Virus record (IMG/VR): IMGVR_UViG_2713896795_000007
Location: 1-39,405 of that record
Strand: one strand, 5' to 3'
DNA length: 39,405 nt
DNA from: a virus
Lineage: Duplodnaviria; Heunggongvirae; Uroviricota; Caudoviricetes
Both the position numbers and the translations under genes were made by a program. Under the pieces are notes generated by a model. The model was not told where the DNA came from. It did no database searches and worked only from the letters and a program-made list of their open reading frames with translations. This document shows, piece by piece, positions 8,677 through 35,863 of the stretch. The first letter of the stretch is position 1. Each line of letters begins with the position of its first letter.

Positions 8677-8797
8677 TGCTCGCAAAGTAGCGCAGTGCGT
8701 TAAATGTGCTGTGGTTATTAATACTGGTCTTTCTGCTTGCTGGCTTTTTCGACATGAGTTATTGGTATGTCACGTTAACCAGAAAAGGGAAAAAGAC

Positions 8798-20184: not shown

Positions 20185-20758
20185 ATTTTCTTTCATGCAC
20201 CTGGTAGGCATGGGCGGTCGTTCGCGAATGGATGACGATCCGGAGGACAAACGCGACGGGGAGAATGCGGAGGATGACGAGGATCGTCGCGAAAGCCGTA
20301 AGGCGCGCTCCCGTGCGGATGACGACGATAACGACGACGACGGACAGGCGGATGACGACGAAAACTGCCGCGAAAGCCGTAAGGCGCGCTCCCGTGCGGA
20401 TGATGACGATAACGACGACGATGAAAACGCAGAAGACGACGATGACGAAGAAAAGGCCCGCGCCAGCGAACGTCATCGCTGCGCAGCCATCTTCGCCACG
20501 CCGTATGCAGCGAAAAATCCGGCCCTTGCCGCAGAGCTGGCCTTCAACACCCGCATGAGTGTGAAACAGGCCAGAGCCGTGATGAAAGCGGCGGTGGCAG
20601 GGGGCGCAGGCCAGAAAGGCGGACTGACTGCCCGTATGCAGCATGTACCACAGCCGGGAACCGGACGTGATGTCCGCCCTGCACCGACGGAGGCGCACGC
20701 GATGGCACAGCACGCCATGAAACTGTACAACGAGGCGACGGGAGGTAAAGCGCAATGA
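20177..20758 (+). CDS. acidic repeat-containing head assembly protein (scaffold-like)
   Basis: AAGGAG RBS; D/E-rich N-terminal half with duplicated RESRKARSRADDDDNDDD unit (about 49-bp direct repeat, copies starting near 20287 and 20368); between protease and decoration protein. Confidence 0.55.
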   Translation: MGKFSFMHLVGMGGRSRMDDDPEDKRDGENAEDDEDRRESRKARSRADDDDNDDDGQADDDENCRESRKARSRADDDDNDDDENAEDDDDEEKARASERHRCAAIFATPYAAKNPALAAELAFNTRMSVKQARAVMKAAVAGGAGQKGGLTARMQHVPQPGTGRDVRPAPTEAHAMAQHAMKLYNEATGGKAQ

Positions 20759-21156
20759 GCACATACGGAAACAACCCGTCGGTACCGGGTTACTGGTCCG
20801 GTGCATACCAGCCGGACCAGCTGCTGTGCGGACCGCTTCAGGTGGTCACAAAAACTGTGACCATCACTGGTGGCGAGGTGTATCAGCGCGGTACGGTGCT
20901 GGGGCGCATCACGGAAAGTGGGGCGTACACCCTCTGCAAGCAGGGGGCAGGCGTGACGGACGGCAGCGAAACGCCGGTGGCGATTCTGGCGGACATGGCG
21001 GATGCCTCGTCCGGTGATGTGCTGGCCGGTGTCTACCTGATGGGTGAGTTCAACGCAAACCGGGTGATTTTTGATGAAAGCTGGGACATTGATGATCTGA
21101 GCGTGGCGCTGGAGAAAGAGAAAATCTTTCTGCGCAATCCGGTCACGGTACCGTGA
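20755..21156 (+). CDS. head decoration protein (gpD-like)
   Basis: 133 aa immediately upstream of the major capsid gene; size and position of lambda gpD-type decoration proteins. Confidence 0.65.
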   Translation: MSTYGNNPSVPGYWSGAYQPDQLLCGPLQVVTKTVTITGGEVYQRGTVLGRITESGAYTLCKQGAGVTDGSETPVAILADMADASSGDVLAGVYLMGEFNANRVIFDESWDIDDLSVALEKEKIFLRNPVTVP

Positions 21157-21178
21157 TCTCCCCTCTGACAGCCTGACA

Positions 21179-21200
21179 GCCGCATGATGCGGCTTTTTTT
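21179..21200. terminator. hairpin plus T-run between decoration and capsid genes
   Basis: GCCGCA-TGA-TGCGGC followed by TTTTTTT. Confidence 0.5.
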
Positions 21201-21211
21201 ATGGGATTTTT

Positions 21212-22267
21212 ATGAGCGAAAAAGACTTTAATCTGCTGTACGACACCGCGTTTCTGGCGCAGGTGGTGCCGAACCTGTTTGTGGCTCAGAACTGGCTGCT
21301 GGACAGTTTCTTCCCGAATATCGTGCTGAGCGATACGGAGTATGTGGCCATTGATGTGGAAGTGGGCGCACGCCGTATGTCACCGTTCTGCTCCCCTCTG
21401 GTGGAAGGACCAATGGTTGAGGCCCTGCCGTACCAGACCAACACCTTCAGACCGGCCTACATCAAGGATAAGCGCGTTCCCGATTTGCTTCGTCCGGTGC
21501 GCCGTATGATCGGCGAACGCCTGGGCGGGCGTGAGTACACGCCAGCAGAGCGTGCAATGCTGAACCTCCAGTACGAGATGGCCGACCAGATCAACATGCT
21601 GAACCGTCGTCTTGAATGGATGGCGGCACAGGCGCTCCAGTACGCGAAGGTGACGATCGCCGGTGAGGGCTACCCGACCACGGAAGTGGATTTTCGTCGT
21701 GACAGCGACCTGACGGTGACACTGAGCGGGGATGATGTCTGGCCTTCTGAGGAAAGCAGCACGATCCCGACCTCCTGCCTTGAGGCGTGGGCGACGCTGA
21801 TGCTGAAAAAATCCGGTGCGTACCCGACCGAGGTGATTTTCACGCCGTCAGCCTGGACAGCGTTCATGAACGACAGTTTCATTCGTGAGAACGCCATCAA
21901 CATGCCCGCCCTGAACCCGACCAGCAACGTGGTGAACCCGGGGACGCAGATCAACACCGGTGCGGTGTACAAGGGCAGGTGGGGGAACTTCAACCTCTGG
22001 CTGTATAACGACTGGTTCATCGATCCGGATGACGGAACCGAAAAACCGATGCTGGATGACGGCAACGTCATTCTGACCGGGGCGGCCCTGATGGGGACCC
22101 GCGCGTTCGGCTGTATCATGGATCCGGCGTTTAATTACGGCCAGATGGCCTATGCCCCGAAAATGTGGGATCAGCAGGATCCGGCACAGCGTTTCCTGAT
22201 GATGCAGTCGGCACCGATTGTCATCCCGTCCCGTGTCAATGCGTGCCTGTGCGCGTCGGTGGTGTGA
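21212..22267 (+). CDS. major capsid protein (lambda gpE family)
   Basis: 351 aa; C-terminal region TRAFGCIMD...QRFLMMQSAPIVIP parallels lambda gpE (LRTYGCIQD...REFTMIQSAPLML). Confidence 0.9.
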   Translation: MSEKDFNLLYDTAFLAQVVPNLFVAQNWLLDSFFPNIVLSDTEYVAIDVEVGARRMSPFCSPLVEGPMVEALPYQTNTFRPAYIKDKRVPDLLRPVRRMIGERLGGREYTPAERAMLNLQYEMADQINMLNRRLEWMAAQALQYAKVTIAGEGYPTTEVDFRRDSDLTVTLSGDDVWPSEESSTIPTSCLEAWATLMLKKSGAYPTEVIFTPSAWTAFMNDSFIRENAINMPALNPTSNVVNPGTQINTGAVYKGRWGNFNLWLYNDWFIDPDDGTEKPMLDDGNVILTGAALMGTRAFGCIMDPAFNYGQMAYAPKMWDQQDPAQRFLMMQSAPIVIPSRVNACLCASVV

Positions 22268-22268
22268 G

Positions 22269-22454
22269 ATGGCGTCCGGCAAAAAGGGCGCGCCGGTTGA
22301 CTATGTTGTGCTGCGCGGTTGTGTGCAGCACAACGGACAACGGGTGGCGCAGGGTAATGTGATCACCCTGAGCGAAAGCGAGGCGCAGCGTCTTCTGCGT
22401 CTGGGGGTGATTGTTCCACTGGCGGAGATGAAGGGTGATGGCCGGACCGGTTGA
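22269..22454 (+). CDS. small head/neck-region protein (61 aa)
   Basis: ATG after GGTGGTGTGAG; located between capsid and tail genes. Confidence 0.4.
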   Translation: MASGKKGAPVDYVVLRGCVQHNGQRVAQGNVITLSESEAQRLLRLGVIVPLAEMKGDGRTG

Positions 22455-22770
22455 CTGGGACAAAAATCTGTTGTCCCCGTTGTTCGGGGTGTTTGGTGAG
22501 GAATGCGAACACCGCCCGCGTGGCGGTGAGGCGTACCGGCTGACCGGGATTTTTGACCGGGCGTACACGCAGCAGCTTGTCGGCGAGGACGGGGGCACGG
22601 AATCAAACTCCACGCTGCCCGTGCTGGGCGTGCGGGATGCGGCGTGTCGCGTGAAGCCGAAGCAGGGCGATATTTTCCTCATCGTGCGCACGGGGGAGCT
22701 GTATATCGTGCGGGATGTGCAACCGGACAGCCACGGCGGCACGCGACTTGAACTGAACAGGGTGAAGTGA
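22435..22770 (+). CDS. putative head completion / head-tail connector protein
   Basis: 111 aa, overlapping neighbours in operon style. Confidence 0.45.
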   Translation: MMAGPVDWDKNLLSPLFGVFGEECEHRPRGGEAYRLTGIFDRAYTQQLVGEDGGTESNSTLPVLGVRDAACRVKPKQGDIFLIVRTGELYIVRDVQPDSHGGTRLELNRVK

Positions 22771-23330
22771 TGAATACCGCAGAAGCCAGAAAAATTGTCA
22801 CCCGGGCACTGAACGACTGTTCCGGTTTTGGCGGTCGGGTGTATTCCCCGCGCACCCTGCCGGTGATGCCGGACCAGTACCCGCTCATCATTGTGTCCGT
22901 GCAGTCCGAACACAAGGTGTCACAGGGGCGGCATGTGCCGCAGTTCACCACCACCACGACCCTGCGTATCGACGGTCGCGTGCTGGCGTATGACAGCGGG
23001 GACGAGACGGAAAACGCAGCAGGCGTGGCGTGGGAAGAGGCGGAGGCGATGAAGGAGGCGATAGAGCGTGCCGTCATCGGTAATCCGGACGTCCGCATGA
23101 AGTTTCAGCAAATCAGCAGGATCCGGTCGCATATCGGCGTGGATTCCGACGGTGAAGCGCACACCGGTATTGTGGTGCTGGAGCTGGATCTGGAGTACTA
23201 CCAGGGGCCGGAGGATTTCTTCCCGTCTGAGATTGTCCCGCTGCGTGAGGTGAACGTGCGCGGCGTGTATCCGTCATTCCGCCTGCATTTTGATTTGTCT
23301 GCCGGTGATGAAACCGGCAGTGAAACCTGA
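22767..23330 (+). CDS. putative neck / tail completion protein
   Basis: 187 aa in the head-tail joining region; start overlaps the previous stop. Confidence 0.45.
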   Translation: MMNTAEARKIVTRALNDCSGFGGRVYSPRTLPVMPDQYPLIIVSVQSEHKVSQGRHVPQFTTTTTLRIDGRVLAYDSGDETENAAGVAWEEAEAMKEAIERAVIGNPDVRMKFQQISRIRSHIGVDSDGEAHTGIVVLELDLEYYQGPEDFFPSEIVPLREVNVRGVYPSFRLHFDLSAGDETGSET

Positions 23331-23343
23331 CAGGAGAAATTCC

Positions 23344-23580
23344 ATGTTTGTGAAACCTGTACCGGGGCGCAGGGTGCGCTACCCCGGCGACCCGTCACGT
23401 CTGCTGCCTGATGAGGGGGCGGAGGTGCCGGATCGTGATTTGTTCTGGCGACGCCGCCTGAAGCAGGGGGATGTGGTACTGGCTGACAGGGCCACCACGG
23501 CAGCCACCGGCAAAGTGACCGCGTCCACGACAGCAACAGGCAGCACGTCTGCCAGCACGGCGAAAGGGGGTGATGCATGA
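23344..23580 (+). CDS. small protein preceding tail sheath (78 aa)
   Basis: GACAGGAG RBS; Thr/Ala/Ser-rich C-terminus; position seen in Mu-like tail modules. Confidence 0.45.
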   Translation: MFVKPVPGRRVRYPGDPSRLLPDEGAEVPDRDLFWRRRLKQGDVVLADRATTAATGKVTASTTATGSTSASTAKGGDA

Positions 23581-25079
23581 CGGTATCGTTCAGCAATATC
23601 CCGTCAAATCTCCGTGTGCCACTGTTCTATGTTGAAGTGGACAACTCAATGGCGAACAGCGCCACGGAGACGCAGCGCACCCTGCTGATTGGTCAGATGA
23701 CGGCTGCGGGAACGGCCACGGCAGGGACGGCATACCGCTGTTCATCGGCCTCCATGGCTGCCGGGCTGTGCGGGGAAGGCTCCATGCTGCATACCATGCT
23801 GATGGCCTACCTTAAAAATGACAGCTACGGAGAGACCTGGCTGCTGCCGCTGGCAGATGATGACAGCAGCATGACGACGGCCACAGGCAGTATATCTGTT
23901 GACAGTGTGCCGACGGCATCCGGCGTTATTTACCTGTACATCGCAGGCACCCGCGTGCGCCTGACGGTGAAGCCAGCGTACACGCGGGCAGAGATTGCCA
24001 GTCTGCTGGCAGACAGAATCAACGCCACCTCCGGGCTGCCGGTGACGGCCTCCGTGCCCCGTGATGGCACGACCGTTGAGCTTACGGCCAGAAATGCCGG
24101 TGAGACGGGAAACACCATTGATATCCGGCTGAACTATCTCGGGTCATCCGGCGGCGAGTCCACCCCGGACGGCCTGACGCTGACCATCACGGCGATGAGT
24201 GGCGGGGAGGGTGCGCCGGACCTTGCGGATGCGCTCGCCTCTCTGGGCGACCGCACGTTTGATTTCATTGTCCTGGCGTATTCCGACACCACATCGCTCA
24301 ACGACATGAAGGATTTTCTGTCGGATGACGAAGGTCGCTGGGCGTGGGACAAACAAATTTACGGCCATGCCTTCACGGCGGTAAACGGCAGCTATGGCGA
24401 GCTGGCAGACAAGGGAGAGCGCCGCAACGACCAGCACATGACACTCTGGGGAGTGTATGACGGTCCGAACACCTCATATGACTATGCCGCCGCGATGGTG
24501 GGGGCGCTGGCGCAGTCGGTCCGCAACGATCCGGCGAGACCCACCCAGACGCTGCCGGTATCCGGTGTGCTGGCCCCGCCGCTGGCAAGCCGTTTCACCC
24601 TGACGGAGCGGAACACGCTTCTCTACAGCGGTATCTCAACCTTCACGGTGTCGGCCGACGATACGGTGACGCTTGAGAATACCATCACCACGTACCAGAC
24701 CAACCGATACGGTGCGACAGACGACAGCTACCTGCAGATCGAGACGATGTACACGCTGATGTATGTATGCCGCGACATGCGCACACAGGTGACCTCGAAG
24801 TTTGGACGGATGAAGCTGGCAGATGACGACGCGAATATTCCGGCAGGGGCTGCGATAGCCACACCTGCGATTATTCGTGCTGAGCTGATCGCCCGGTTCC
24901 GGACGCTGGCGAGCAACGGCTACGTGCAGAATGCGGATGCGTTTGCGGAGCAACTGGTGGTTGAGCGTGACAGTGACAACCCGAACCGCGTGAACGTGGT
25001 GTGGCCGGGCCGCCTGATGAACCAGTTACGCATCTTTGCGGTGCTGAACCAGTTCAGGCTGAACAGCCGCAGCGATTAA
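23577..25079 (+). CDS. contractile tail sheath protein (Mu gpL-like)
   Basis: 500 aa, first gene of a Mu-like tail module and followed by the tube gene. Confidence 0.8.
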   Translation: MTVSFSNIPSNLRVPLFYVEVDNSMANSATETQRTLLIGQMTAAGTATAGTAYRCSSASMAAGLCGEGSMLHTMLMAYLKNDSYGETWLLPLADDDSSMTTATGSISVDSVPTASGVIYLYIAGTRVRLTVKPAYTRAEIASLLADRINATSGLPVTASVPRDGTTVELTARNAGETGNTIDIRLNYLGSSGGESTPDGLTLTITAMSGGEGAPDLADALASLGDRTFDFIVLAYSDTTSLNDMKDFLSDDEGRWAWDKQIYGHAFTAVNGSYGELADKGERRNDQHMTLWGVYDGPNTSYDYAAAMVGALAQSVRNDPARPTQTLPVSGVLAPPLASRFTLTERNTLLYSGISTFTVSADDTVTLENTITTYQTNRYGATDDSYLQIETMYTLMYVCRDMRTQVTSKFGRMKLADDDANIPAGAAIATPAIIRAELIARFRTLASNGYVQNADAFAEQLVVERDSDNPNRVNVVWPGRLMNQLRIFAVLNQFRLNSRSD

Positions 25080-25086
25080 CCATGAT

Positions 25087-25108
25087 GCCGCCTGCGGGCG
25101 GCTTTTTT
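25087..25108. terminator. hairpin plus T-run after the sheath gene
   Basis: GCCGCC-TGCG-GGCGGC followed by TTTTTT. Confidence 0.5.
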
Positions 25109-25118
25109 ACGGGAGACG

Positions 25119-25484
25119 ATGATGAGTCAGAACGCGTTAGCGGGCACCTGTACCGTGACGATTGACGGCGTGTCGGTCAATGTGGCCGGAACGTTCAGAT
25201 ATTCCGTGGGTGAAATCGAGCGTGAAACGCTCACGGGGATGAGCGGCATACATGGCTTTAAGGAGTCGTACAAAGCGCCGTTTATCGAGATGACGGTGCG
25301 TGATTCCGGCTCACTGTCACTGAAGGATTTTGCGGCATATACGGATGTGACGGTGGCGGCCTATCTGGTGAACGGCAAGACCATTCTCGGTCAGAACATG
25401 TGGCTGACTGGCCGGATTGAGACAGACAACAACGATGCAACCTTTACGGCCCGTTTTGAGGGGCGGGAAGTGACGGAGAGCTGA
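25119..25484 (+). CDS. tail tube protein (Mu gpM-like)
   Basis: 121 aa immediately after the sheath gene. Confidence 0.7.
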   Translation: MMSQNALAGTCTVTIDGVSVNVAGTFRYSVGEIERETLTGMSGIHGFKESYKAPFIEMTVRDSGSLSLKDFAAYTDVTVAAYLVNGKTILGQNMWLTGRIETDNNDATFTARFEGREVTES

Positions 25485-25486
25485 CA

Positions 25487-25765
25487 ATGAATGAGAAACA
25501 GACCGAAGAACTGGTGGTGACGCTGAAACGTCCGGTGAAGGATCCGGATACCAGGACCGAGTTCCGTGAGCTGCGACTGAAAGAGCCGGTGCTGTTCCAG
25601 GCGGAGGACTTTCACCGCAATACCGCCTCACTGGGCGCAATGGCGGCCATGCGTGAGCTGATTGCGGCAGTGGCGGGCGTGCCGTCTGCCCCGCTGAAAT
25701 TCATGGCGGTGTCCGATTACAAAAAGTGTGAGCGGTTCCTGACGGGTTTTTTCCTGGAGGCCTGA
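25487..25765 (+). CDS. tail assembly chaperone (short form)
   Basis: 92 aa between tube and tape measure genes; ends just after a GGGTTTTTTC slippery run. Confidence 0.7.
   Translation: MNEKQTEELVVTLKRPVKDPDTRTEFRELRLKEPVLFQAEDFHRNTASLGAMAAMRELIAAVAGVPSAPLKFMAVSDYKKCERFLTGFFLEA
25744..25753 (+). promoter_or_regulatory. candidate -1 programmed ribosomal frameshift site
   Basis: G GGT TTT TTC in the chaperone frame; a -1 slip opens a 52-codon extension ending at TAA 25903-25905, overlapping the tape measure start. Confidence 0.5.
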
Positions 25766-25894
25766 GCCAGTGGCAGGCGAGGGCGGCTGAACTAACGTGG
25801 TTCTTTCACTGGTCCCCGCGCGAGGCGTGGGGGCTGACGTCAGGGGAAATTCTCTGGTGGTCGTCGCAGGCAGAGCGGATCAACAGGCTGAGGA

Positions 25895-27859
25895 GTGGCG
25901 ATGGCGGGTAATGCTTTTGTTTTTGAGCTGAATGCAAAGGGTAACGCGGATGCGCTTTTACTGAGAGCCTCAGAGGCTGCCGGTTCGCTGGCAGGTCGCG
26001 CAGGGCAGGCGGCGGCCTGCGTGTCAGAACTGTGTGACGGGCTTGATGCGGTAAATGAAATGCCCCTGAAGGGGGCATCCGGTGCGGCGGATGCGCTGGG
26101 CGGGAAGATAACGCAGATCCACGATTCGGTTACGCTACTGATGAACGCGCTGCTGGCCACAGACAGGGCGGGTAACAGGGCGCTGGGAAGGGAGAGTCAG
26201 GAGAATGCGGACAGGATGTCCGGATATTTTGAACGGCTGTCCCGGCTGGGGAAGGACACGTCACAGCATTTCGGGGATATTGTGCCGCCGCTGCGCAATG
26301 TCGGGGCACTGTCATCAGAGCTGTTCAGTGCGCTGGGGCGCGGAGGTCTTGCGGGGCTTGCGGTCGCTGGCGGTGGCATGGCGGTGAAGGCGGTCGTCAG
26401 TAATCTTTATGATGCCTCGAAAGCGGCATACAGCCTGGATGTGAACGCAAGGAACGCCGGAATGCGCGTGAGTGCGTTCAGCCGCTTTGCCGGGGTGTTC
26501 CGTCTGATGGGCCTGTCGGCAGATCAGGCACAGGCGGAGACCGGTGCACTGTTCACGACACTGAACGATGCGCTGAACACCCGTTCACCGGAGGTCACGG
26601 GCATTCTTAACCAGTTTGGTGTGAAGCTGGCGGAGAACAGCGACCACACGGTGAACCTGGAAAAGAGCACGCAGAACCTGATTGATGCCTTCGGGAGACT
26701 GAACAGTTCGTCGCAGAAGGTGGTGGCAGACGCGCTGGGGCTGTCGGATGCACAACTGGCGCTGCTGCGGGGAACGAAAAACCTGAATGCGGCGCTGGCG
26801 GAGTCCGATCGTCTGGGGCTGTCGATGCCGGACAGTCTGAATGCGAAGCTGGTTCAGGCCAACAGCAACCTGAACCGTCTGTCAGCCGCGTGGGATGGTT
26901 TCACCGGCAGGATGAAGGCGAAGGTACTGGGCAGTGATGCTGTCACCGCCTCCGTGGACTGGGCGACCGATGTCCTGACCGGTCAGCGCAGCAGTCAGCA
27001 GAAAACGGGTGACCGTCTGTCAGAGCTGCGCGGTTATCTGTATGCCCATCCGGAGCAACTGAAATCACTGACGTCCCGGCAAAGATACAATCTCGATAAC
27101 AATATCGCGACATCAGATCTCCTGGAGATGCACACGCGTCTGTCCGGTCAGCGGTCCGACAGACTGAATGCGCTTACCACGATGCTGAATGACGATCTGT
27201 CGAAAGTTATGGTGTCTCCGGCCCTGTCACAGATCACGTCACCACAAAAAAACGGTGCCGGTGGTCGTGATATCACCCCTGAACTGCGGGCGCATTTTGC
27301 GGCACTGGAGAAGCAGTACAACCTGCCGGAAAACACGCTGTACGGTCTGGCCATGACGGAGTCGTCCGGGCGGGCGGATGCTGTCGGGCCGCTCACCCGT
27401 TACGGCACGGCAAAGGGGATGTTTCAGTTCATTGACCCGACGGCCCGGGAGTATGGCCTTTCCGGTATGGATGTATTCAACCCTTACCGGGCCTCGGAGG
27501 CAGCGGCCAGAAAACTGGCGGGGCTGATGGCGCAGTATGGTGGTGACATGCAGCGCGTCTTTCAGGCGTACAACTGGGGCGAAGGCAATATAAGCGCCTG
27601 GCTTCGCGGACAGAAGGGGATGCCACAGGAGACACAGACCTACGCGCCGAAGGTGTTCAGGCACATGTCGCAGGTATCCGGCGGCAGCATCATCATGCCG
27701 CAGTCCGGCAGTTCAGGGACTGACGTGCGGGATGAAATCAGTCGCGGTTTCAGCGAAAACAAAATCCGGCTGGACATTAACGTCACCAACACCGCCACGG
27801 GGCAGACAACCCGCCGGACGGTGAAGGGGGGCGCGGTGGTCACGGCGATGGATGTGTGA
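25895..27859 (+). CDS. tail tape measure protein with C-terminal lytic transglycosylase-like domain
   Basis: 654 aa, Ala/Gly/Leu-rich helical N-terminal part; C-terminal LAMTESSGR...GMFQF...QAYNWGEGN resembles the SLT catalytic motif. Confidence 0.85.
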   Translation: MAMAGNAFVFELNAKGNADALLLRASEAAGSLAGRAGQAAACVSELCDGLDAVNEMPLKGASGAADALGGKITQIHDSVTLLMNALLATDRAGNRALGRESQENADRMSGYFERLSRLGKDTSQHFGDIVPPLRNVGALSSELFSALGRGGLAGLAVAGGGMAVKAVVSNLYDASKAAYSLDVNARNAGMRVSAFSRFAGVFRLMGLSADQAQAETGALFTTLNDALNTRSPEVTGILNQFGVKLAENSDHTVNLEKSTQNLIDAFGRLNSSSQKVVADALGLSDAQLALLRGTKNLNAALAESDRLGLSMPDSLNAKLVQANSNLNRLSAAWDGFTGRMKAKVLGSDAVTASVDWATDVLTGQRSSQQKTGDRLSELRGYLYAHPEQLKSLTSRQRYNLDNNIATSDLLEMHTRLSGQRSDRLNALTTMLNDDLSKVMVSPALSQITSPQKNGAGGRDITPELRAHFAALEKQYNLPENTLYGLAMTESSGRADAVGPLTRYGTAKGMFQFIDPTAREYGLSGMDVFNPYRASEAAARKLAGLMAQYGGDMQRVFQAYNWGEGNISAWLRGQKGMPQETQTYAPKVFRHMSQVSGGSIIMPQSGSSGTDVRDEISRGFSENKIRLDINVTNTATGQTTRRTVKGGAVVTAMDV

Positions 27860-27869
27860 GGAGCAGAAG

Positions 27870-29276
27870 ATGGGCATTATCACAGACGCGGTGTCATCCG
27901 CCCTGGGGCTGTCTTCCTCCGGCGGGTGGGAGTGGCAGTCGCATATTCACCAGGCGTCATTTTGTGGCGTGCCGTTTGGCGTGATTCACGGCGAGGGGGT
28001 ATATGGTCGCCGGGTTGCGGTGCATGAATACCCGTACCGCGATACGGTCTGGGTGGAAGACCTGGGGCGCAGCGCCCGGAAGTTCACACTGCGCGGGTTC
28101 CTGATACAGGACAGTCTGGTGTACAGCGCGGGGGATGTGTTCAGTCAGCGGGATACCCTGGTGGCGGCCTGTGAAACATCCGGCGGAGGTCTGCTGGTCC
28201 ATCCGACGCTGGGTGAGATGACGGTGTATGTCCCGGACGGCGGGCTGCGTATTGAGGAGGGCGTGGAGTCCGGGCGTGTGTTTTCGTTCACGCTGACCGT
28301 CATTGAGTCAGGGGAAAAAGCGTTTTCACTGGTGACGGGGACAACCTCCACGTCATCGGAGACGTGGTATCAGACGCTGACCACAACGGCCACCGTGACG
28401 CTGGCGGCGATTACCGGTGAGATGAACAGTGTCACCGGGGCGGTAAAAACGATAAAGAGCACGGTGAGCGCGTGGAAGACGATATTTTCGCGGGCGGTGA
28501 CGTCGGTGACCAGCATGACCAGCACGGTGTCATCCCTGTATTCGCCTGACAGTTACGGGCGTTACTGTCGGGGCAGTGACACGCCGTCGGGCAGCACGGC
28601 CTCGTCGCTTGCAACGTGGCTTGCCACCACGGATGCGGATGATGACAGTATCCTGGAAACCATTCAGGCCTGCTCCGTGCAGGACCGGTCGGCGGCGGAG
28701 TCGGCGACAGCGGTGCTGGAGGATATCACATCCGTGTCCGGTGCCGTGTCCGCGATACAGGCGGTCATTATCACTCTGGCGGAGGCCACGGGCAGCGACA
28801 CGGAGAAAATCCGCGTCATGGCTGAGATTGCGTCGGCGGAAGACGGGACGTATTACGAAGGGGAGGCGGCAAATGCCATCTCTGCGGCGGTGCAGGCCCT
28901 TATCCGCACACTGGGGGCCGGAGCGATGCTGTGGCGGCTGATGCAGTATTCCCCCCGTGGTCACGACGACGCGGTGTTGGTGATGCGGAAGGCCCGCACG
29001 GTGACGGAAACCGTCCTGCTGTTACTGGCTGACCGTACGGATGACGACAGTTATGACGCGCTGAATGCGCAGTACACGCAGTTTGTCACCCACTGGCAGA
29101 CGAATTATCTGTCACAACAGGACGTGATGAAGGTGACCAGCCGCTCACCGCAGCCGTCGCTGGCGCTGGCAAACCGGCTGTATCAGGACGCCTCGCGTGC
29201 GGACGAACTGGTACAGGCGGTCTCTCCCGTCCATCCGGCGTTCATGCCGCTTTCCTTCACAGCGAGAAACACATGA
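27870..29276 (+). CDS. Mu gpN-like DNA circulation protein
   Basis: GAGGAG RBS before ATG 27870; size and position after the tape measure match Mu N. Confidence 0.7.
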   Translation: MGIITDAVSSALGLSSSGGWEWQSHIHQASFCGVPFGVIHGEGVYGRRVAVHEYPYRDTVWVEDLGRSARKFTLRGFLIQDSLVYSAGDVFSQRDTLVAACETSGGGLLVHPTLGEMTVYVPDGGLRIEEGVESGRVFSFTLTVIESGEKAFSLVTGTTSTSSETWYQTLTTTATVTLAAITGEMNSVTGAVKTIKSTVSAWKTIFSRAVTSVTSMTSTVSSLYSPDSYGRYCRGSDTPSGSTASSLATWLATTDADDDSILETIQACSVQDRSAAESATAVLEDITSVSGAVSAIQAVIITLAEATGSDTEKIRVMAEIASAEDGTYYEGEAANAISAAVQALIRTLGAGAMLWRLMQYSPRGHDDAVLVMRKARTVTETVLLLLADRTDDDSYDALNAQYTQFVTHWQTNYLSQQDVMKVTSRSPQPSLALANRLYQDASRADELVQAVSPVHPAFMPLSFTARNT

Positions 29277-30361
29277 GTACAACCACAGATGACACCCTGA
29301 CGCTGAAGGTGAACAACACCGTCATGTCGGGATGGAGCCATATCCGGGTGACGCGGGGTATTGAGCGCCTGCCGTCGGATTTTGAGCTTTCGCTGACGGA
29401 CTGGTATCCGCAGGAGGGCTTTCAGCTGGCCCCGCCGGGGAGCAACTGCACGATATCCATTGGTGATGACCGGGTGATGACCGGCTATGTCGACCAGTGG
29501 GTGAACACCCTGACGCCGCAGTCGCATGATATCCGGGTGACGGGCAGGGGAATGTGCCAGGACCTTGTGGACTGCGCCGCCTGGTGGGAGAACAACATGA
29601 TAAAGGGCGGCGATGCGCTGGCCATCATCAGAAAACTGGCGTCGGTGTACGGCATCACGGTGACGACAGACATCGACAGTTTCACCACGGTGCCGGATTT
29701 TGTCATCAACTGGGGGGAGTCGTCGCAGCAAATCATTGACCGCATCTGCCGGTATGAGGGGCTGCTGTATTACGACCTGCCGGATGGCAGCCTGTTCCTG
29801 ACGCGGGCAGGAACGGCGTCGGCAGCCAGCGGGGTGACGCAGGGGGTGAACCTGCAGAAGGCGGAGTACACACGAAGCATGAATGAACGGTTTTCGGAAT
29901 ACACCGGGCTGTCGGTGTCGGTGAACAGCCTCAGCGAGCTGTCACCGGCATCCGGTTATGACAGCGTGCTGCTGGCGACGGCCCGTGACCCGGAAGCCGC
30001 CGGTATGCGCACCCGTCGTCACGTGACGATAGTGGAGAGCACGCTGATGACGACGGGGTGTGCACAGCAGGCGGTGAACTGGGAAATGAACCGGCGCTAC
30101 GGGCGTTCCATGGCAGTGAACGTCACGGTGGACAGCTGGCGTGACAGTGCGGGAACGCTGTGGCAGCCCAACACCTTTGTGCCGGTGAGCATACCGGCAC
30201 TGGGGGCGGACAGTCTGAACTGGCTGGTCTCTGAGGTGACGTTCAGCCGTGACGATGAGACGGGGACCACGGCATCGCTGGTCCTGATGCCGCCGGAGGC
30301 GTTCAGCGTGCAGCCGTACCGTTTTTATTCCGGCGTGGCCGGAAGGGATGTGTCGTCATGA
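29273..30361 (+). CDS. baseplate hub protein (Mu gpP-like)
   Basis: 362 aa, between the N-like and spike genes. Confidence 0.7.
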   Translation: MSTTTDDTLTLKVNNTVMSGWSHIRVTRGIERLPSDFELSLTDWYPQEGFQLAPPGSNCTISIGDDRVMTGYVDQWVNTLTPQSHDIRVTGRGMCQDLVDCAAWWENNMIKGGDALAIIRKLASVYGITVTTDIDSFTTVPDFVINWGESSQQIIDRICRYEGLLYYDLPDGSLFLTRAGTASAASGVTQGVNLQKAEYTRSMNERFSEYTGLSVSVNSLSELSPASGYDSVLLATARDPEAAGMRTRRHVTIVESTLMTTGCAQQAVNWEMNRRYGRSMAVNVTVDSWRDSAGTLWQPNTFVPVSIPALGADSLNWLVSEVTFSRDDETGTTASLVLMPPEAFSVQPYRFYSGVAGRDVSS

Positions 30362-30939
30362 ATCCTGTACAGGTGCTTTTTCGCCGTCTGGTGTCACTGC
30401 TGAGCGTGGGGCGCGTGACGGCGGGTGATGACAGCGGTGTGGTGCAGACCGTGCAGGTGCAGAGTCCGTCAGAGGTACGCAGCGACACGCCGGTTCTTCA
30501 GCAGTTTGGTTTTTCCTCGGTGCTGCCCGACGGAACGGATGTGGTGGTGATGAGTCTTGCCGGTAACCGCAGCAGCGCGGTGGTGGTGGCGTCCGGCCAT
30601 CAGTCATACCGGATTAACGGTCTGAGCAGCGGTGAGGTGGTGGTCTACAACCAGTGGGGGCAGTTCGTCCGTCTGGGTGAGGACGGGATTGTGGTGGAGG
30701 CCTCCGGGCAGCCGGTGACGGTGAACAGTGCCACCACGCTGAAGGTGACGGCGACGGACGGGGTCACCCTTGAAACGCCGTCGCTGAAGGTGACGGGGGA
30801 TATCACGGACAACTGTGAAACCAACAGCACCACGCTGAAGGCGCTGCGGGAGGCATACAACATCCACACCCACCCGGTCAGCGGTGTGGAGAGCGGCGGC
30901 AGCACGGTGACAAGTCAGGCAACCACGGGGACGGTGTGA
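30358..30939 (+). CDS. baseplate spike protein (gpV / Mu gp45-like)
   Basis: 193 aa; central Val/Thr-rich beta segment and C-terminal HTHP His motif typical of spike apex domains. Confidence 0.7.
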   Translation: MNPVQVLFRRLVSLLSVGRVTAGDDSGVVQTVQVQSPSEVRSDTPVLQQFGFSSVLPDGTDVVVMSLAGNRSSAVVVASGHQSYRINGLSSGEVVVYNQWGQFVRLGEDGIVVEASGQPVTVNSATTLKVTATDGVTLETPSLKVTGDITDNCETNSTTLKALREAYNIHTHPVSGVESGGSTVTSQATTGTV

Positions 30940-30940
30940 G

Positions 30941-31378
30941 ATGAGCGATATCACGCTTTTGTACGATGAAGAGGCGCTGCGGTGCGACTGGTCCGTGGGC
31001 ACAGGTGACATTGTCTGCGGAAATGATTTGCAGACGGCCATTCTCATCAGCCTGTTCACGGACAGGCTGGCGGATGCATCAGATGAGACGGATGACGGAA
31101 ACCGGCGCGGATGGTGGGGTGACCTTGAGCAGGACTACCGGGTCGGCTCCCGGCTGTGGCTGCTGCGCAGGCAGAAACTGACCACACAGGTGGCGCTTAA
31201 GGCGGAGGCATACGCCCGGGAGGCGCTGCAGTGGCTGAAGGATGACGGCGTGGTGGCCTCGCTGGATGTGGAGGCGTGGATAGTGCCGCCGGACCGGCTG
31301 TACATGACCATTGCATACCAGCGTCCGGATGCGGACACGACGGAATACCAGAAATTTTACCGGGTGTGGGAGGTATGA
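30941..31378 (+). CDS. baseplate wedge protein (Mu gp46-like)
   Basis: 145 aa between spike and baseplate J-like genes. Confidence 0.65.
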   Translation: MSDITLLYDEEALRCDWSVGTGDIVCGNDLQTAILISLFTDRLADASDETDDGNRRGWWGDLEQDYRVGSRLWLLRRQKLTTQVALKAEAYAREALQWLKDDGVVASLDVEAWIVPPDRLYMTIAYQRPDADTTEYQKFYRVWEV

Positions 31379-31379
31379 G

Positions 31380-32534
31380 ATGCCGTTTGAGCGTCCCGGA
31401 TTAAGCGAACTGCGTGAGAAAAGCCGGTCGTATGTGACCGGCCAGCTGGATGAGGCCGGTGCCCTGCTGCGGTTTTCCACGCTGGGGATTCTGGCGGATG
31501 CCGTGGCGGGCATGACGCATCTGCATTACGGCTATCTTGACTGGATAGCGCAGCAGTGCACACCGGCCACGGCCACCGGGGAATATCTGGCGGCTTGGGG
31601 GGCACTGAAGGGCATCATCCGCAGGGCAGCAGTGGCGGCCACCTGTGAGGCGGTGCGCTTTACGGGCACACCGGGCAGCACGGTGAGCGCGGAGGCGGTG
31701 CTGAACCGTGCGGACGGGTATCAGTACACGCTGGATGAGGATGTGAGCATTGACAGTGACGGCAGCGGCACGGGGAGCATCACGGCGGTGCTGCCGGACC
31801 CGACGGATGACCGCACCGGCGGTGGTGATGACGGTAACGCGAATGCCGGAACGACCCTGACACCGGATGTCACCTGGTCAGGCATCGACTCAACGGTGAC
31901 GATGGTGAGTGCCGCCACCGGCGGCAGTGACACTGAGGATGAGGAAGCGTACCGCCAGCGCGTGCTGTATGCGTACCAGAACCCGCCTCAGGGCGGGGCG
32001 GCGGCGGACTATGTGCAGTGGGCGCTGGAAGTTCCCGGTGTGACCCGTGCATGGTGTGTGAACCGTGCACTGGGGTTCGGGACGGTGGGTGTTTACATCA
32101 TGACGGACGGAGATGATGAAGACAACGCCGGGGGCTTTCCTGACGGCACGGACGGGGTGGCAACGGATGAGGACTGGACGGACCGGAAAGCCACGGGGGT
32201 GCAGCTGACGGTGGCGGACCATATCCGGCAGTACCAGCCGGTCACGGCGGTGGTGTACGTGATGTCGCCGGTGGCCAGAAGCATTGATTTTGAGATACAG
32301 GGGCTGAGCAGTGCCACGGCGGCACTGAAGGCACGGGTGGAGAGTGCCATCAGCGAGGTGCTGTACAACGTGGGTGAACCGGACGGCAGCGGGGTGATTC
32401 ACCTTTCAGACCTCTGGTACGCCATTGCGGACACAGAGGGGACAGACGGGTTCATTCTGGTGTCTCCTGACAGCAACATCACGCTGTCGCAGGGAGAGCT
32501 GCCGGTGACCGGAACGATAACCTGGGCAACATGA
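31380..32534 (+). CDS. baseplate J-like protein (Mu gp47-like)
   Basis: ATG overlapping the previous TGA; about 385 aa in the conserved baseplate position. Confidence 0.75.
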   Translation: MPFERPGLSELREKSRSYVTGQLDEAGALLRFSTLGILADAVAGMTHLHYGYLDWIAQQCTPATATGEYLAAWGALKGIIRRAAVAATCEAVRFTGTPGSTVSAEAVLNRADGYQYTLDEDVSIDSDGSGTGSITAVLPDPTDDRTGGGDDGNANAGTTLTPDVTWSGIDSTVTMVSAATGGSDTEDEEAYRQRVLYAYQNPPQGGAAADYVQWALEVPGVTRAWCVNRALGFGTVGVYIMTDGDDEDNAGGFPDGTDGVATDEDWTDRKATGVQLTVADHIRQYQPVTAVVYVMSPVARSIDFEIQGLSSATAALKARVESAISEVLYNVGEPDGSGVIHLSDLWYAIADTEGTDGFILVSPDSNITLSQGELPVTGTITWAT

Positions 32535-35500
32535 GGAACAGGATGAGTCGTTTTTCACATGATGACTACACGCGCGCGATGCTGAACCTTCTGCCGTCAG
32601 GGATTGCCTGGAGCCGTCTGCCTGACAGCGTGCAGCACCGGCTGATACGCGGACTGGCACAGGCGTACCGGCAGAGTGACGCTGATGCGTGCGCACTGAT
32701 AACGGGCGCCTTCCCGGAAACGGCGGATGCGCTCACTGATGAGTGGTATGCCTCGCTGGGGCTGAATGATGAATGCGGGACGCAGGCATCCACCACAGAC
32801 CCGGCGCAGGCCAGAAAATTCATTCTGGCGAAACTGCTGTCGACGGGCGGGCAGAGTGTGGCGTATTTCACGGAGCTTGCGGCGACGATGGGGTACAGCA
32901 TCACTATCCGTGAGTACCGCACACCGCTGTGCGGATTTTCGTGGAGCGGGCATCTGCTGAGTGACGACAACCGGTTTAACTGGACCGTGGTGGTGGCACC
33001 GCCGGGGGATGAGGTGACCACCTCACGGGCGTACCTGGAGTGCCTGTTTCGTCGTTATGCCCCGGCGCATACGCTGGTGACGTTTGAGTGGCAGTCATCG
33101 TACAGCGCCGCTCTGAGCATTGCATGGGACAACATCACACACGTTCTTTCCGGTGCGCTCACGGCAGACGAGGGGGTGGTGGTGTCGGGGGTGACGGTGA
33201 ATGTTGTCATCAAATCCGCGTCGGGACAGCGGTATGTGGCGACAGTGACAACGGACAGTGAAGGGCACTGGTCGTATGAAATGGAGGATGATGATTTTGC
33301 GAACGGCTGGTATTCGGCGTATGCAGAGGCTGCCGTTGACATGCCGGATGACGTGACAGTACCGGTACGCAGTGAGGTGATAAATCTGCGGAAAACCGTG
33401 AGTGTGCGCGGTGTGAGCCTGTCGGTCACTGAGCTGGAGCTTGACAATGATGAGTGTGCTGCGGTTGCGGTGAGTGTCTGGCCGGAGAATGCTGAAGACC
33501 GGAGCTGGACTGTGACGGTCAGCGATGAAAGCGTGGTGTCGGTGGTGGTCAACAGCGACAGTTCACTGACCGTGTGCGGGGTGAGCGAAGGTGATGCGGT
33601 GGTGACGGTGACGACAAATGACGGCGGACACACGGCAACATTACAGGTCAGCTGTTACGTGCCGGCGGTTTTTGATTCGGTCTGTGCTTCATCGTCAAAA
33701 GCGCTGGTCAGTGTTGCTGATGTGGTGAACTGTCGTGTCAGCTTCGGCGACGGATATGTTGCTGCGGACCAGCTTGAAACGACAACCAGCGGGGGCTGGG
33801 CGAATATCCTGTTACCCGACTCACTGGCAGACGGGGAGCTCCGGACAATCAGGGTGAGAACGGCGGGGAGTGTCAGGTTCAGGGTGTACGGGTACAGCAG
33901 CACGGCTTACAACGACCTGGTCAGACTACGTCAACTTCCGGCGGGACAAAAATCCTGTAGCTACCTTGCGGGTAATACTCCCAGTCTGGTGAGTATTGAC
34001 AGCGGCGCATTCCGTTTTTGCAAAAACGCTACGGCATTCGACAGTGCATTTTACCGGTGTAAAGGACTGACTGCGATACCTCCGGGGCTGTTTGCTGAGT
34101 GCGCCAGCGCCACGACGTTCTATCAGGCATTTTACGAATGTACGGGACTCACTGCAGTCGGTGACAGCGCGTTTGCCGGCTGCACAGGCGTAACGACTTT
34201 TCGTCAGGCGTTTTACGGCTGTACCGGGCTGAGAGCGGTGGGTGAGAGCGTGTTTGCCGGGTGCACCGGTGCCACGACGTTTGAGGATACCTTTTATGGT
34301 TGTACCGGACTGAGCGCCGTGGGGGACCATGTGTTTGCCGGGTGCACCAGTGCGACAACATTTTACAGGGTCTTTTATAACTGCAGGGAACTGAGCACGG
34401 TGGGTAACAGCGTGTTTGCCGGATGTGCCAGTGCCACAACGTTTTTGCAGGCCTTTTATGGCTGCCAGGCGCTGACATCATTAGGTCAGGGGATATTTGC
34501 AGACTGCACCGGGGTGACGACATTCCTCCAGGCTTTTTATAACTGCAGGGGACTGACGGCATTGCCGGAAGGGATGTTTGACAGCTGCACTGCCGTGACC
34601 ACGTTCAGTAATGCCTTTTATGGCTGCACGGCTCTGACAGCAATACCGGAAGGGTTGTTTGACAGTTGTACCGGGGTGACGACATTCAACCGGACGTTTT
34701 ATGGCTGCGGGGCCCTGACAGCGATACCGGCAGGGCTGTTTGACAACTGCGTCTCTGTGACGACGTTCAGTTATGCCTTTGGCGACTGTGTGAGACTGAA
34801 GGCGCTGCCTGCCGGGCTGTTTGAAAACTGTAGTCGTGTGACGACCTTCTTCCGGACGTTTTATGGCTGCACGGAACTGGTAACGGTGGGGGAAAGGGCG
34901 TTTGCAGGCTGCAGCAGTGCATCGACGTTCGAAGGCACATTTTACGACTGCACGAAGCTGACAACGCTGGGAGACAGTGTATTTGACGGATGTACAGGTG
35001 TGACGTCGTTCTATCAGACTTTCAGTGGCTGCACGAAGCTGACAGCAATACCTGCAGGGCTGTTTGACAGCAGCCACGGCGTGACAACCTTCTACCGGAC
35101 ATTTTACCGGTGTGCCGCCCTGACGACGGTGCCTGAGGCGGTATTTGACCGTTGTGTCAGCGCAGGGTCTTTCCAGGATACGTTTTTCGGTTGTACGGGG
35201 CTGACGATGTTACCTGCAGGATTGTTTGATAACTGTACCCGTGTGACGTCGTTTTACCGGACGTTCCGGGGCTGTACAGGTCTGAAGACACTGCCGGAAG
35301 GGTTGTTTGACAACAACACTGCTGTGACCACGTTCAGTCAGACTTTTTACGGCTGTACGGGGCTGGCGGTGCTGCCTGCCGGGCTGTTTGAAAACTGTAC
35401 CGGAGTGACATCGTTCTATCAGACCTTTGATGGTTGCACGGGGCTGATGACGATACCGGACGGACTGTTTGCAGGACTCGCCAGCGTAACAACATTCAGA

Positions 35501-35821
35501 GAGACCTTTAACGGTTGTACGGGGCTGACCACTGTGGGCGACGGCTTGTTTGCGGGGTGCGTCAGTGCGACGACGTTTGAGGGCACCTTTTACGGTTGCA
35601 CAGGGCTGGAGAGTGATGTGAATGACATCCTCCCGGCGGAAGAGTACCCGCAAATAACCAGTGTGTACCGTTGTTTTTACAACTGCCGGTCATTGCAGGG
35701 AAGCGGATGTGCGCTCATTGAGAAGTTGCCTGGCGTGACGAGTTACGCGGATGCGTTTTATAACTGCGTATCCCTGAGCGATTTCAGCACCCTGTCTGAG
35801 CGTTATCCAGTCTGGGTTTAA
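32531..35821 (+). CDS. giant baseplate gp48-like protein fused to an Ig-like domain and about 25 Cys-containing leucine-rich-type repeats
   Basis: 1096 aa. The N-terminal ~200 aa sits in the Mu gp48 position; residues ~290-380 form an Ig-like beta-rich segment; from ~470 on, 26-27-aa units of the form F.GCTGLT.IP.GLFD.CT.VTTF..TFYGC repeat about 25 times. Confidence 0.8.
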   Translation: MRNRMSRFSHDDYTRAMLNLLPSGIAWSRLPDSVQHRLIRGLAQAYRQSDADACALITGAFPETADALTDEWYASLGLNDECGTQASTTDPAQARKFILAKLLSTGGQSVAYFTELAATMGYSITIREYRTPLCGFSWSGHLLSDDNRFNWTVVVAPPGDEVTTSRAYLECLFRRYAPAHTLVTFEWQSSYSAALSIAWDNITHVLSGALTADEGVVVSGVTVNVVIKSASGQRYVATVTTDSEGHWSYEMEDDDFANGWYSAYAEAAVDMPDDVTVPVRSEVINLRKTVSVRGVSLSVTELELDNDECAAVAVSVWPENAEDRSWTVTVSDESVVSVVVNSDSSLTVCGVSEGDAVVTVTTNDGGHTATLQVSCYVPAVFDSVCASSSKALVSVADVVNCRVSFGDGYVAADQLETTTSGGWANILLPDSLADGELRTIRVRTAGSVRFRVYGYSSTAYNDLVRLRQLPAGQKSCSYLAGNTPSLVSIDSGAFRFCKNATAFDSAFYRCKGLTAIPPGLFAECASATTFYQAFYECTGLTAVGDSAFAGCTGVTTFRQAFYGCTGLRAVGESVFAGCTGATTFEDTFYGCTGLSAVGDHVFAGCTSATTFYRVFYNCRELSTVGNSVFAGCASATTFLQAFYGCQALTSLGQGIFADCTGVTTFLQAFYNCRGLTALPEGMFDSCTAVTTFSNAFYGCTALTAIPEGLFDSCTGVTTFNRTFYGCGALTAIPAGLFDNCVSVTTFSYAFGDCVRLKALPAGLFENCSRVTTFFRTFYGCTELVTVGERAFAGCSSASTFEGTFYDCTKLTTLGDSVFDGCTGVTSFYQTFSGCTKLTAIPAGLFDSSHGVTTFYRTFYRCAALTTVPEAVFDRCVSAGSFQDTFFGCTGLTMLPAGLFDNCTRVTSFYRTFRGCTGLKTLPEGLFDNNTAVTTFSQTFYGCTGLAVLPAGLFENCTGVTSFYQTFDGCTGLMTIPDGLFAGLASVTTFRETFNGCTGLTTVGDGLFAGCVSATTFEGTFYGCTGLESDVNDILPAEEYPQITSVYRCFYNCRSLQGSGCALIEKLPGVTSYADAFYNCVSLSDFSTLSERYPVWV

Positions 35822-35863
35822 TAACAGGAGGATCCCGCCGCTCCGGTGGCGGGGTAAGGATGT

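What the first reader, a model, noticed from the sequence alone, without database searches (positions are those of the whole stretch)
32531..35821. Baseplate gp48-like protein expanded into a 1096-aa adhesin-like protein with an Ig-like domain and about 25 Cys-containing leucine-rich-type repeats
In Mu-like baseplates the gene after the J-like protein encodes a ~190-aa protein. Here that gene is 1096 aa: after the gp48-like N-terminus comes an Ig-like beta-rich segment, then about 25 tandem 26-27-aa units (F.GCTGLT.IP.GLFD.CT.VTTF..TFYGC) that resemble BspA-type leucine-rich repeats, a fold I associate with cell-surface adhesins rather than phage tails. A separate conventional tail fibre plus Tfa follows, so this would be a second, baseplate-embedded host-recognition module. 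The repetitive DNA is also a substrate for repeat-number variation.
Basis: partly seen in the sequence, partly recalled or inferred. Interest (0 to 1): 0.72.

Follow-up and report, generated by a model that had tools for sequence, protein, structure and literature searches.

The report
Phage baseplate protein carrying leucine-rich-repeat arm
A prophage tail gene that normally encodes a small baseplate wedge protein here carries a long extension of three Ig-like domains and a 20-turn leucine-rich-repeat solenoid, probably an extra host-binding arm, and its turn number differs between related E. coli prophages.

Summary

The gene sits between baseplate J and a 263-aa fibre plus Tfa, with no internal promoter-like site.

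Related E. coli prophages carry alleles of 18, 32, 33 and 34 turns. All differences are exact multiples of 81 nt. The window allele equals the 33-turn allele minus 13 turns, joined at an 18-nt homology. It is on record only in one draft assembly.

The same stalk-LRR-cap module is fused to two other wedge-3 families: P2 gpI in a Klebsiella phage and E. coli A34, and Phage_Wedge1 in a metagenomic contig. It is therefore a recurrent, shuffled module rather than a one-off.

A host-binding role is inferred, not shown. PGAP already names the protein "leucine-rich repeat protein". I found no functional study in the papers I could search.

The parts
32531..35821 (+). Whole ORF (1096 aa from 32531; probable true start at 32543, giving 1092 aa)
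   Evidence: PGAP start in the orthologues
32576..33088 (+). Mu Gp48 / baseplate wedge subunit 3 (BW3) domain, aa 16-186; the anchor in the wedge
   Evidence: Pfam PF10076, E 5e-21; phrog_203 baseplate wedge subunit, E 6e-45; matches solved Mu gp48 chain 9ki1_a residues 7-175 of 180, E 4e-13
33098..33400 (+). First beta-sandwich domain (aa ~190-290), weakly Big_13-like; conserved even in relatives that lack the LRR
   Evidence: Big_13 E 9e-4, below cutoff; all-beta in the model, pLDDT ~80-85; retained in L011 and in 259-293-aa relatives
33404..33649 (+). Big_2 Ig-like domain (aa 292-373)
   Evidence: Pfam PF02368, E 4e-7; Foldseek hits to tandem Ig proteins
33665..34009 (+). Third beta domain with an F-GDG motif (PKD-like by eye, aa ~379-470) plus the N-terminal cap of the solenoid (aa ~470-493)
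   Evidence: beta strands in the model; conserved (D/S)(Y/F)GDG block in the 4-protein alignment; no Pfam hit
34010..35629 (+). 20 tandem 27-aa (81-nt) BspA/PARCEL-type leucine-rich-repeat turns, aa 494-1033
34715..34732 (+). 18-nt homology CTGACAGCGATACCGGCA where the window allele joins turn 9 to turn 23 of the 33-turn allele (a 1053-nt, 13-turn difference)
35630..35818 (+). C-terminal cap: two degenerate units and a short helix (aa 1034-1096), 97-98% conserved between alleles and recognisable in the Klebsiella, A34 and P0178 homologues
31380..32534 (+). Baseplate J / Mu gp47 (BW2) gene directly upstream; its stop overlaps the 32531 ATG
   Evidence: Pfam Baseplate_J, E 9e-56
35864..36655 (+). 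263-aa tail fibre
   Evidence: PHROG tail-fibre families, E 1e-31
36665..37204 (+). Tail fibre assembly protein
   Evidence: Pfam Caudo_TAP, E 7e-25; phrog_136, E 5e-58

Best explanation
The gene encodes the third wedge subunit (BW3, Mu gp48-type) of a Mu-like contractile-tail baseplate with an accessory adhesion arm fused to its C-terminus. The N-terminal ~190 aa is a complete Gp48 domain. By analogy with the solved Mu baseplate, it would sit once per wedge, so six per virion, at the baseplate periphery, and would also dock the fibre trimer. From it would project a monomeric arm: three Ig-like beta-sandwich domains as a stalk, then a 20-turn LRR solenoid with a cap. I propose that the solenoid surface binds a component of the bacterial envelope. 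That would give a reversible first contact, or a second specificity, alongside the short 263-aa fibre. Specificity and reach would then be tuned by swapping, duplicating or deleting blocks of turns. What is shown: the domain identities, the predicted fold, the gene's position in the tail operon, the allelic turn-number and turn-content variation, and the recurrence of the module on three wedge-protein families. What is inferred: incorporation into the virion, the copy number, the outward projection, and any ligand binding.
Against: There is no binding, virion-proteomic or adsorption evidence. Well-characterised fibres and tailspikes are mostly trimeric, as far as I know, whereas this arm is predicted as a monomer on a one-per-wedge subunit. 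The Gp48 domain itself is modelled at only pLDDT 50-70. The concave-face assignment of the variable positions rests on sequence pattern, because I had no access to model coordinates. The gene is rare, present in 6-7 of 5426 complete E. coli genomes. It also survives intact in the decayed E24377A prophage with the stalk deleted, so intactness alone does not prove current function. A conventional fibre plus Tfa is already present and might suffice for adsorption.
Confidence: 0.55

Rival explanations
1. The arm is structural or regulatory rather than a receptor binder. It would form a peripheral skirt or strut that stabilises the baseplate or holds and positions the short fibres. The enlarged wedge-3 proteins of complex baseplates do this (T4 gp7; Afp12/Pvc12 of extracellular contractile injection systems; these examples are from my own knowledge and were not tested here).
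For: BW3 is the fibre-docking subunit in Mu. LRRs are generic protein-protein interaction scaffolds (one search hits). The gene always lies next to a short fibre of 263-365 aa in the Mu-like and P2-like versions.
Against: A structural strut should have a fixed length, yet turn number varies from 18 to 34 between prophages whose gp47 is 99.7% identical and whose fibres are 93-98% identical. The central turns are replaced cassette-wise. L011 keeps the same fibre with a quite different module, and phiNP manages with a 201-aa gp48.
Confidence: 0.15
2. The arm binds something other than the bacterial host, such as mucus glycans or animal-cell surfaces. It would hold virions in the gut niche, in the way proposed for Ig-like capsid decorations and in line with the role of BspA-type LRR adhesins.
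For: The closest solved folds include gut-bacterial surface LRR proteins (4gt6, 4fs7) and animal adhesion LRRs. The Big_2 and Ig stalk resembles phage decoration domains. All carriers with a stated source are gut E. coli from animals or humans.
Against: The attachment point is the baseplate periphery next to the fibre, not the capsid or tail tube. The allele pattern (conserved anchor, variable tip) is the one expected from an arms race with the bacterial host. There are no direct data either way.
Confidence: 0.12
3. The 20-turn form in this window is an assembly artefact or a decaying allele. On this view the true gene in the source strain has 33 turns, and the window says nothing special about a 1096-aa protein.
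For: The exact 1092-aa product is on record in only one draft assembly, GCA_001077955.1 contig LFKC01000011.1, which is identical to the window. It equals the C8 allele minus turns 10-22 exactly.
Against: The junction homology is only 18 nt. The longest exact repeat in the 33-turn allele (79 nt) lies elsewhere and would remove 14 turns, not 13. The product is in frame, with an intact solenoid register. Other natural alleles show comparable block deletions and duplications in complete genomes. Either way the protein class is real.
Confidence: 0.15

Closest known systems
Bacteriophage Mu gp48 (baseplate wedge protein 3, PDB 9KI1; PMC11915804)
   Same: The N-terminal 190 aa match Pfam PF10076 and the solved chain over its full length. 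The gene has the same position after the gp47/J gene and before the fibre gene.
   Different: Mu gp48 is 180 aa and ends where this protein's ~900-aa stalk-LRR extension begins.
BspA/TpLRR-type leucine-rich-repeat surface proteins (Pfam LRR_5; structures 4fs7, 4gt6, 6mlx)
   Different: The period here is 27 aa with two F..C half-units per turn, against ~23 aa in the family. There is no signal peptide or cell-surface anchor; the domain is carried by a phage wedge protein.
PARCEL / DUF285 repeats (TIGR02167; Roske et al. 2010, PMC2996958)
   Same: The VTxFxxxFxxCxxL pattern, variable-number tandem arrays, association with mobile elements, and an NCBIfam hit above cutoff are shared. DUF285 hits the Klebsiella and P0178 homologues.
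   Different: The unit is 27 aa rather than 25-26. The dyad symmetry of the coding DNA that gives PARCELs their name is not significant here.
Klebsiella phage ST16-OXA48phi5.4 gp35 'tail protein I' (NC_049450) and the E. coli A34 'phage tail protein I'
   Same: The Big_2, PKD-like, ~20-turn LRR and cap module is homologous (32-35% identity). Both genes sit after baseplate J and before a short fibre.
   Different: The anchor is the P2 gpI family (PF09684) in a P2-like phage, not Mu Gp48. Neither protein has been characterised functionally.
LRR/beta-helix-bearing DUF7941 proteins of phage Goslar (bioRxiv 10.64898/2026.04.21.720040)
   Same: These are peripheral baseplate-associated proteins with C-terminal LRR-type domains, proposed speculatively to act in host recognition.
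   Different: They have an unrelated anchor domain, belong to a jumbo chimallivirus, and form oligomeric filaments. No homology was shown.
Enlarged wedge-3 proteins of complex baseplates (T4 gp7; Afp12/Pvc12); from my own knowledge, not tested here
   Same: The same wedge position has been expanded with extra peripheral domains.
   Different: Those extra domains are not LRRs and serve mainly as scaffolds for other baseplate proteins.

Membership tests
Mu Gp48 / BW3 baseplate wedge family (PF10076) | Profile match above the curated threshold | tested here: met
   75.4 bits against a cutoff of 37.4, aa 16-186 covering profile positions 2-148 of 150
Mu Gp48 / BW3 baseplate wedge family (PF10076) | Similarity to the solved Mu gp48 chain over its full length | tested here: met
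   9ki1_a, E 3.8e-13, query 14-187 against chain 7-175 of 180
Mu Gp48 / BW3 baseplate wedge family (PF10076) | Gene directly after baseplate J/gp47 and before the fibre gene in a gp44-gp45-gp46-gp47 cluster | tested here: met
Mu Gp48 / BW3 baseplate wedge family (PF10076) | Incorporated once per wedge and docks the fibre trimer | not testable with these tools
   Known for Mu; needs virion proteomics or cryo-EM
BspA-type LRR (Pfam LRR_5, LRR clan) | Profile match above threshold over tandem units | tested here: met
   77.9 bits against 27.7, 4 stretches; 126.7 bits in the 34-turn allele
BspA-type LRR (Pfam LRR_5, LRR clan) | Regular 20-30-aa period with a conserved hydrophobic/Cys ladder | tested here: met
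   Exact 27-aa period; F1, F10, F14, C17 and L20 invariant in 54 distinct units
BspA-type LRR (Pfam LRR_5, LRR clan) | Curved solenoid fold | tested here: met
BspA-type LRR (Pfam LRR_5, LRR clan) | Exported cell-surface protein (signal peptide or anchor) | tested here: not met
   The N-terminus is the Gp48 domain and shows no hydrophobic leader when the sequence is read. The protein shares the fold, not the cell-surface context.
PARCEL / DUF285 repeats | HMM match (TIGR02167) | tested here: met
   41.7 bits against a cutoff of 30; DUF285 hits in homologues
PARCEL / DUF285 repeats | 25-26-residue unit | tested here: not met
   All units are 27 aa
PARCEL / DUF285 repeats | Dyad symmetry of the repeat-coding DNA | tested here: not met
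   The profile self-reverse-complement score is reached by 11.6% of codon-shuffled controls. Only 3 weak inverted pairs were found.
Phage receptor-binding proteins (fibres, spikes) | Conserved N-terminal virion anchor with a variable, exchangeable distal part, encoded in the tail module | tested here: met
Phage receptor-binding proteins (fibres, spikes) | Binds a host surface receptor and determines adsorption or host range | not testable with these tools
   Needs adsorption and binding assays
Phage receptor-binding proteins (fibres, spikes) | Trimeric fibre or beta-helix architecture (usual but not universal) | tested here: inconclusive
   The monomer model is an LRR solenoid, not a fibre fold. 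The oligomeric state was not modelled.

The most novel reading that the evidence does not exclude
LRR solenoids are a distinct, so far uncharacterised class of monomeric phage receptor-binding domain. They are mounted six per virion on the wedge-3 subunit of simple contractile baseplates. Their specificity and reach evolve by shuffling, duplicating and deleting whole turns, which would be a phage counterpart of cassette-built LRR receptors such as lamprey VLRs. The module moves between the Mu-like, P2-like and E217/Pam3-like tail lineages.
Probability: 0.35. Interest if true: 0.7.

Novelty: new variant of a known kind. Interest (0 to 1): 0.5.

Why it matters
If the arm binds the host, it is a second receptor-binding device that is easy to overlook. 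It hides in a gene that annotation pipelines call 'baseplate protein', 'tail protein I' or 'leucine-rich repeat protein', so host-range prediction and engineering that look only at fibre genes would miss it. It would also add the LRR solenoid to the known folds of phage receptor-binding proteins. The fold is modular turn by turn, and turns are visibly swapped and counted up and down in nature. That makes it attractive for retargeting phages, tailocins or other contractile injection systems. The allele series of 18, 20, 32, 33 and 34 turns on near-identical prophages is a ready-made natural experiment.

Tried and rejected
1. Megablast of the gene against 50,697 phage records found nothing. Only protein-level searches found relatives.
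2. Word-index protein searches were uninformative. The full-length query was saturated by repeat words and gave 22 hits. The Gp48 domain gave 13 hits. A 4-sequence profile of the PKD-like and N-cap region gave only 6 fragments. I therefore could not count how common the fusion is.
3. The exhaustive representative search with aa 1-490 was swamped by generic Big_2 proteins. It was still useful for Gp48-family lengths and for finding P0178.
4. PARCEL-style dyad symmetry was tested and rejected: 11.6% of shuffled controls reach the observed score. Only a direct 39/42-nt half-unit periodicity is present.
5. A fast slippage or phase-variation mechanism is rejected. Turns share 44-75% DNA identity, and the longest exact intra-gene repeat is 29 nt.
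6. An independent transcription unit or RNA element is rejected. There are no promoter-like sites and no Rfam hits in 32000-37500.
7. A secreted bacterial adhesin or moron is rejected, because the N-terminus is a wedge domain without a leader.
9. Literature searches for phage LRR receptor-binding proteins returned no functional study. The only relevant item is the speculative Goslar model.
Full report
**Observation**

The ORF at 32531-35821 (+) exists and encodes 1096 aa. The ATG at 32531 overlaps the stop of the upstream gene. A second ATG at 32543 has a GAGGA five bases upstream. It is also the start used by PGAP in every orthologue and by the one database record that has exactly this product. 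The protein is therefore probably 1092 aa.

Pfam finds three domains:
- Phage_Mu_Gp48 at aa 16-186, E 5e-21
- Big_2 at aa 292-373, E 4e-7
- LRR_5, the BspA type, E 8e-22

PHROGs adds phrog_203 'baseplate wedge subunit' for the N-terminus. It also gives a very strong match, E 2e-163, to phrog_9915, a 1813-position family of unknown function.

The repeats are strikingly regular. F..C motifs recur at alternating 13- and 14-aa spacing, which gives an exact 27-aa (81-nt) unit from aa 494 to 1033. That makes 20 units, followed by two degenerate units that form a C-terminal cap. The estimate of 'about 25 units of 26-27 aa' is slightly too high.

**Fold**

I ran an AlphaFold2 model on a 14-sequence alignment. 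It has mean pLDDT 81.5, about 90 across the repeat array, 80-90 over three beta-sandwich domains at about 190-470, and only 50-70 for the Gp48 domain. Each 27-aa unit forms one turn with three short strands.

The top Foldseek hit in the PDB is the Faecalibacterium LRR surface protein 4gt6, followed by tandem-Ig proteins. Sequence searches of the PDB hit designed and VLR-type LRRs and, for the N-terminus, the solved Mu gp48 chain 9ki1_a over its whole length. NCBIfam also assigns the PARCEL repeat (TIGR02167) above cutoff. The dyad symmetry that defines PARCEL coding DNA (PMC2996958) is not significant here.

**Context**

The gene lies in a Mu-type tail module:
- gp44-like hub, 29273-30361
- gp45, 30358-30939
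- gp46, 30941-31378
- baseplate J/gp47, 31380-32534
- this gene
- a 263-aa fibre, 35864-36655
- a Caudo_TAP assembly protein, 36665-37204

No promoter-like site and no Rfam family occur in 32000-37500, so the gene is part of the late tail operon.

In the solved Mu virion, gp48 is wedge protein BW3. It is present once per wedge and carries the loop that docks the fibre trimer (PMC11915804).

The norm for this gene is indeed small. Mu gp48 is 180 aa. The nearest isolated phage by sheath similarity, Citrobacter phage phiNP at 60%, has a 201-aa homologue. Gp48-family hits in the exhaustive search are mostly 160-350 aa.

**Relatives and repeat-number variation**

The window is identical to a contig of the draft assembly GCA_001077955.1. 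Closely related prophages occur in 6-7 of 5426 complete E. coli genomes, at the ompW/yciE, ssrA and uspF/ompN sites, and in IMG/VR contigs. Their orthologues have 18, 32, 33 and 34 turns against 20 here, and every difference is an exact multiple of 27 aa.

A unit-by-unit map shows how the alleles relate:
- The window allele equals the 33-turn allele of strain C8 with turns 10-22 removed. The two flanks are 93-100% identical. The crossover lies in an 18-nt identity at 34715-34732.
- The DS26-1 allele contains an internal block duplication of eight turns, which includes 572 nt of exact identity.
- The E24377A allele is the DS26-1 type with that duplication collapsed. It also has the stalk (aa 257-450) deleted, in a decayed prophage.

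Between alleles, gp47 is 99.7% identical, aa 1-489 are 98% and the cap is 97-98%. The central turns of the DS26-1/E24377A type are only 52-78% identical to the window's.

Within the array, turns share 59% DNA identity on average, with a maximum of 75%. Change therefore comes through occasional unequal recombination on short homologies, not through rapid slippage.

Across 54 distinct turns, F1, F10, F14, C17 and L20 never vary. Positions 11, 12, 21 and 25 are the most variable.

**The module is shuffled between lineages**

A relative (L011) shares the Gp48 domain and first beta domain at 86% identity over aa 1-287. It then switches to five 16-aa repeats plus a separate 368-aa ORF, and keeps the same fibre.

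Conversely, a homologous Big_2, PKD-like, ~20-turn LRR and cap module (32-35% identity) follows baseplate J on other anchors:
- On P2 gpI anchors, in Klebsiella phage ST16-OXA48phi5.4 gp35 (1008 aa, annotated 'tail protein I') and in an E. coli A34 prophage (1046 aa).
- On a Phage_Wedge1 (DUF2612) anchor, in an E217/Pam3-like tail cluster from a metagenome (P0178, 1147 aa).
- A shorter version ends an RCC1-like plus Big_2 'tail protein' that lies beside the fibre genes of Phapecoctavirus phages.

BFVD contains many further phage LRR_5/BspA proteins. The LRR is therefore not foreign to phages. It is a recurrent tail-tip module that no study in the searchable literature has characterised. A 2026 Goslar preprint only speculates that LRR-bearing peripheral baseplate proteins recognise hosts.

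**Interpretation**

The best-supported reading, at confidence about 0.55, is that this is a wedge-3 subunit carrying an accessory adhesion arm. The N-terminal domain builds into the baseplate and docks the fibre. The Ig stalk and LRR solenoid project as six monomeric arms that bind a bacterial surface component. Specificity and reach are tuned by turn content and number.

The architecture, fold, operon position, allelic pattern and cross-lineage recurrence are shown. Virion incorporation, geometry and ligand binding are inferred.

The rivals are:
- a structural or fibre-positioning strut (0.15), disfavoured by the length polymorphism;
- binding to non-host material such as mucus (0.12);
- for this particular 20-turn allele, an assembly artefact or recent deletion (0.15 for the artefact). 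The short 18-nt junction argues against an artefact, but the allele is seen only in one draft assembly.

**Verdict**

The repeat-variation prediction is verified. The functional claim remains an inference.

The protein is already labelled 'leucine-rich repeat protein' in RefSeq, and it belongs to a family that recurs in several myophage lineages. I therefore rate it a new variant of a known kind, namely modular extension of baseplate proteins with binding domains. It has moderate interest (0.5) and a clear experimental path.

Noticed in passing
L011 5992-8269 (IMGVR_UViG_2671180921_000015): A sister prophage replaces the Big_2/PKD-like/LRR part after aa ~287 with five tandem 16-aa repeats (TQEPLVINRVMLQSGR). 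A separate 368-aa ORF with no Pfam match follows, then the same 263-aa fibre (89% identical). This looks like an alternative distal cassette at the same breakpoint.
   Followed up: partly
L003 6013-10425 (E. coli DS26-1): The 34-turn allele contains a 572-nt exact internal duplication spaced 1215 nt (15 turns) apart, which indicates a very recent block duplication inside the array.
   Followed up: partly
L016 and L017 (E. coli strain 'numer 3', NZ_CP141863.1): One genome carries two related prophages, next to ssrA and next to uspF/ompN. Each has its own LRR wedge gene, of 33 and 32 turns. This gives scope for recombination between alleles.
   Followed up: partly
window 35834-35853: A GC-rich hairpin, CCCGCC-GCTCCGGT-GGCGGG, with no T-run sits in the 42-nt gap between the LRR gene stop and the fibre gene's ribosome-binding site. 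It could be an mRNA stability or coupling element.
   Followed up: no
window 37424-38224 (-): A 266-aa alpha/beta-fold hydrolase gene with 42% GC lies just past the tail genes, on the opposite strand. It is a cargo-like gene, conserved in the related prophages but split into two ORFs in DS26-1 and E24377A.
   Followed up: no
window 38842-39405 (-) and related loci: An ORF6N-domain gene lies at the prophage edge. In the relatives it is accompanied by a frameshifted second copy. The relatives are inserted beside a truncated ompW, next to yciE/yciF.
   Followed up: no
window 1-15000 versus 16000-36000: There is a sharp composition change, from 40-53% GC in the left part to about 60% GC across the head and tail module. 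This suggests a mosaic phage whose structural module comes from a higher-GC lineage.
   Followed up: no
window 34149-35653 (-): Several long antisense ORFs (134-198 aa) run through the repeat array and are themselves repetitive. They look like by-products of the periodic GC-rich coding sequence, not genes.
   Followed up: no
window 25895-27859 (+): The protein in the tape-measure position is annotated in the orthologous loci as containing a lytic transglycosylase domain, so the tail carries its own peptidoglycan-cleaving activity.
   Followed up: no
L004 6013-8547 (E. coli E24377A): In a heavily decayed prophage that lacks gp47 and most tail genes, the LRR gene is still an intact 844-aa ORF. 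It has lost aa 257-450, the stalk, so the Gp48 domain is joined almost directly to the solenoid.
   Followed up: partly
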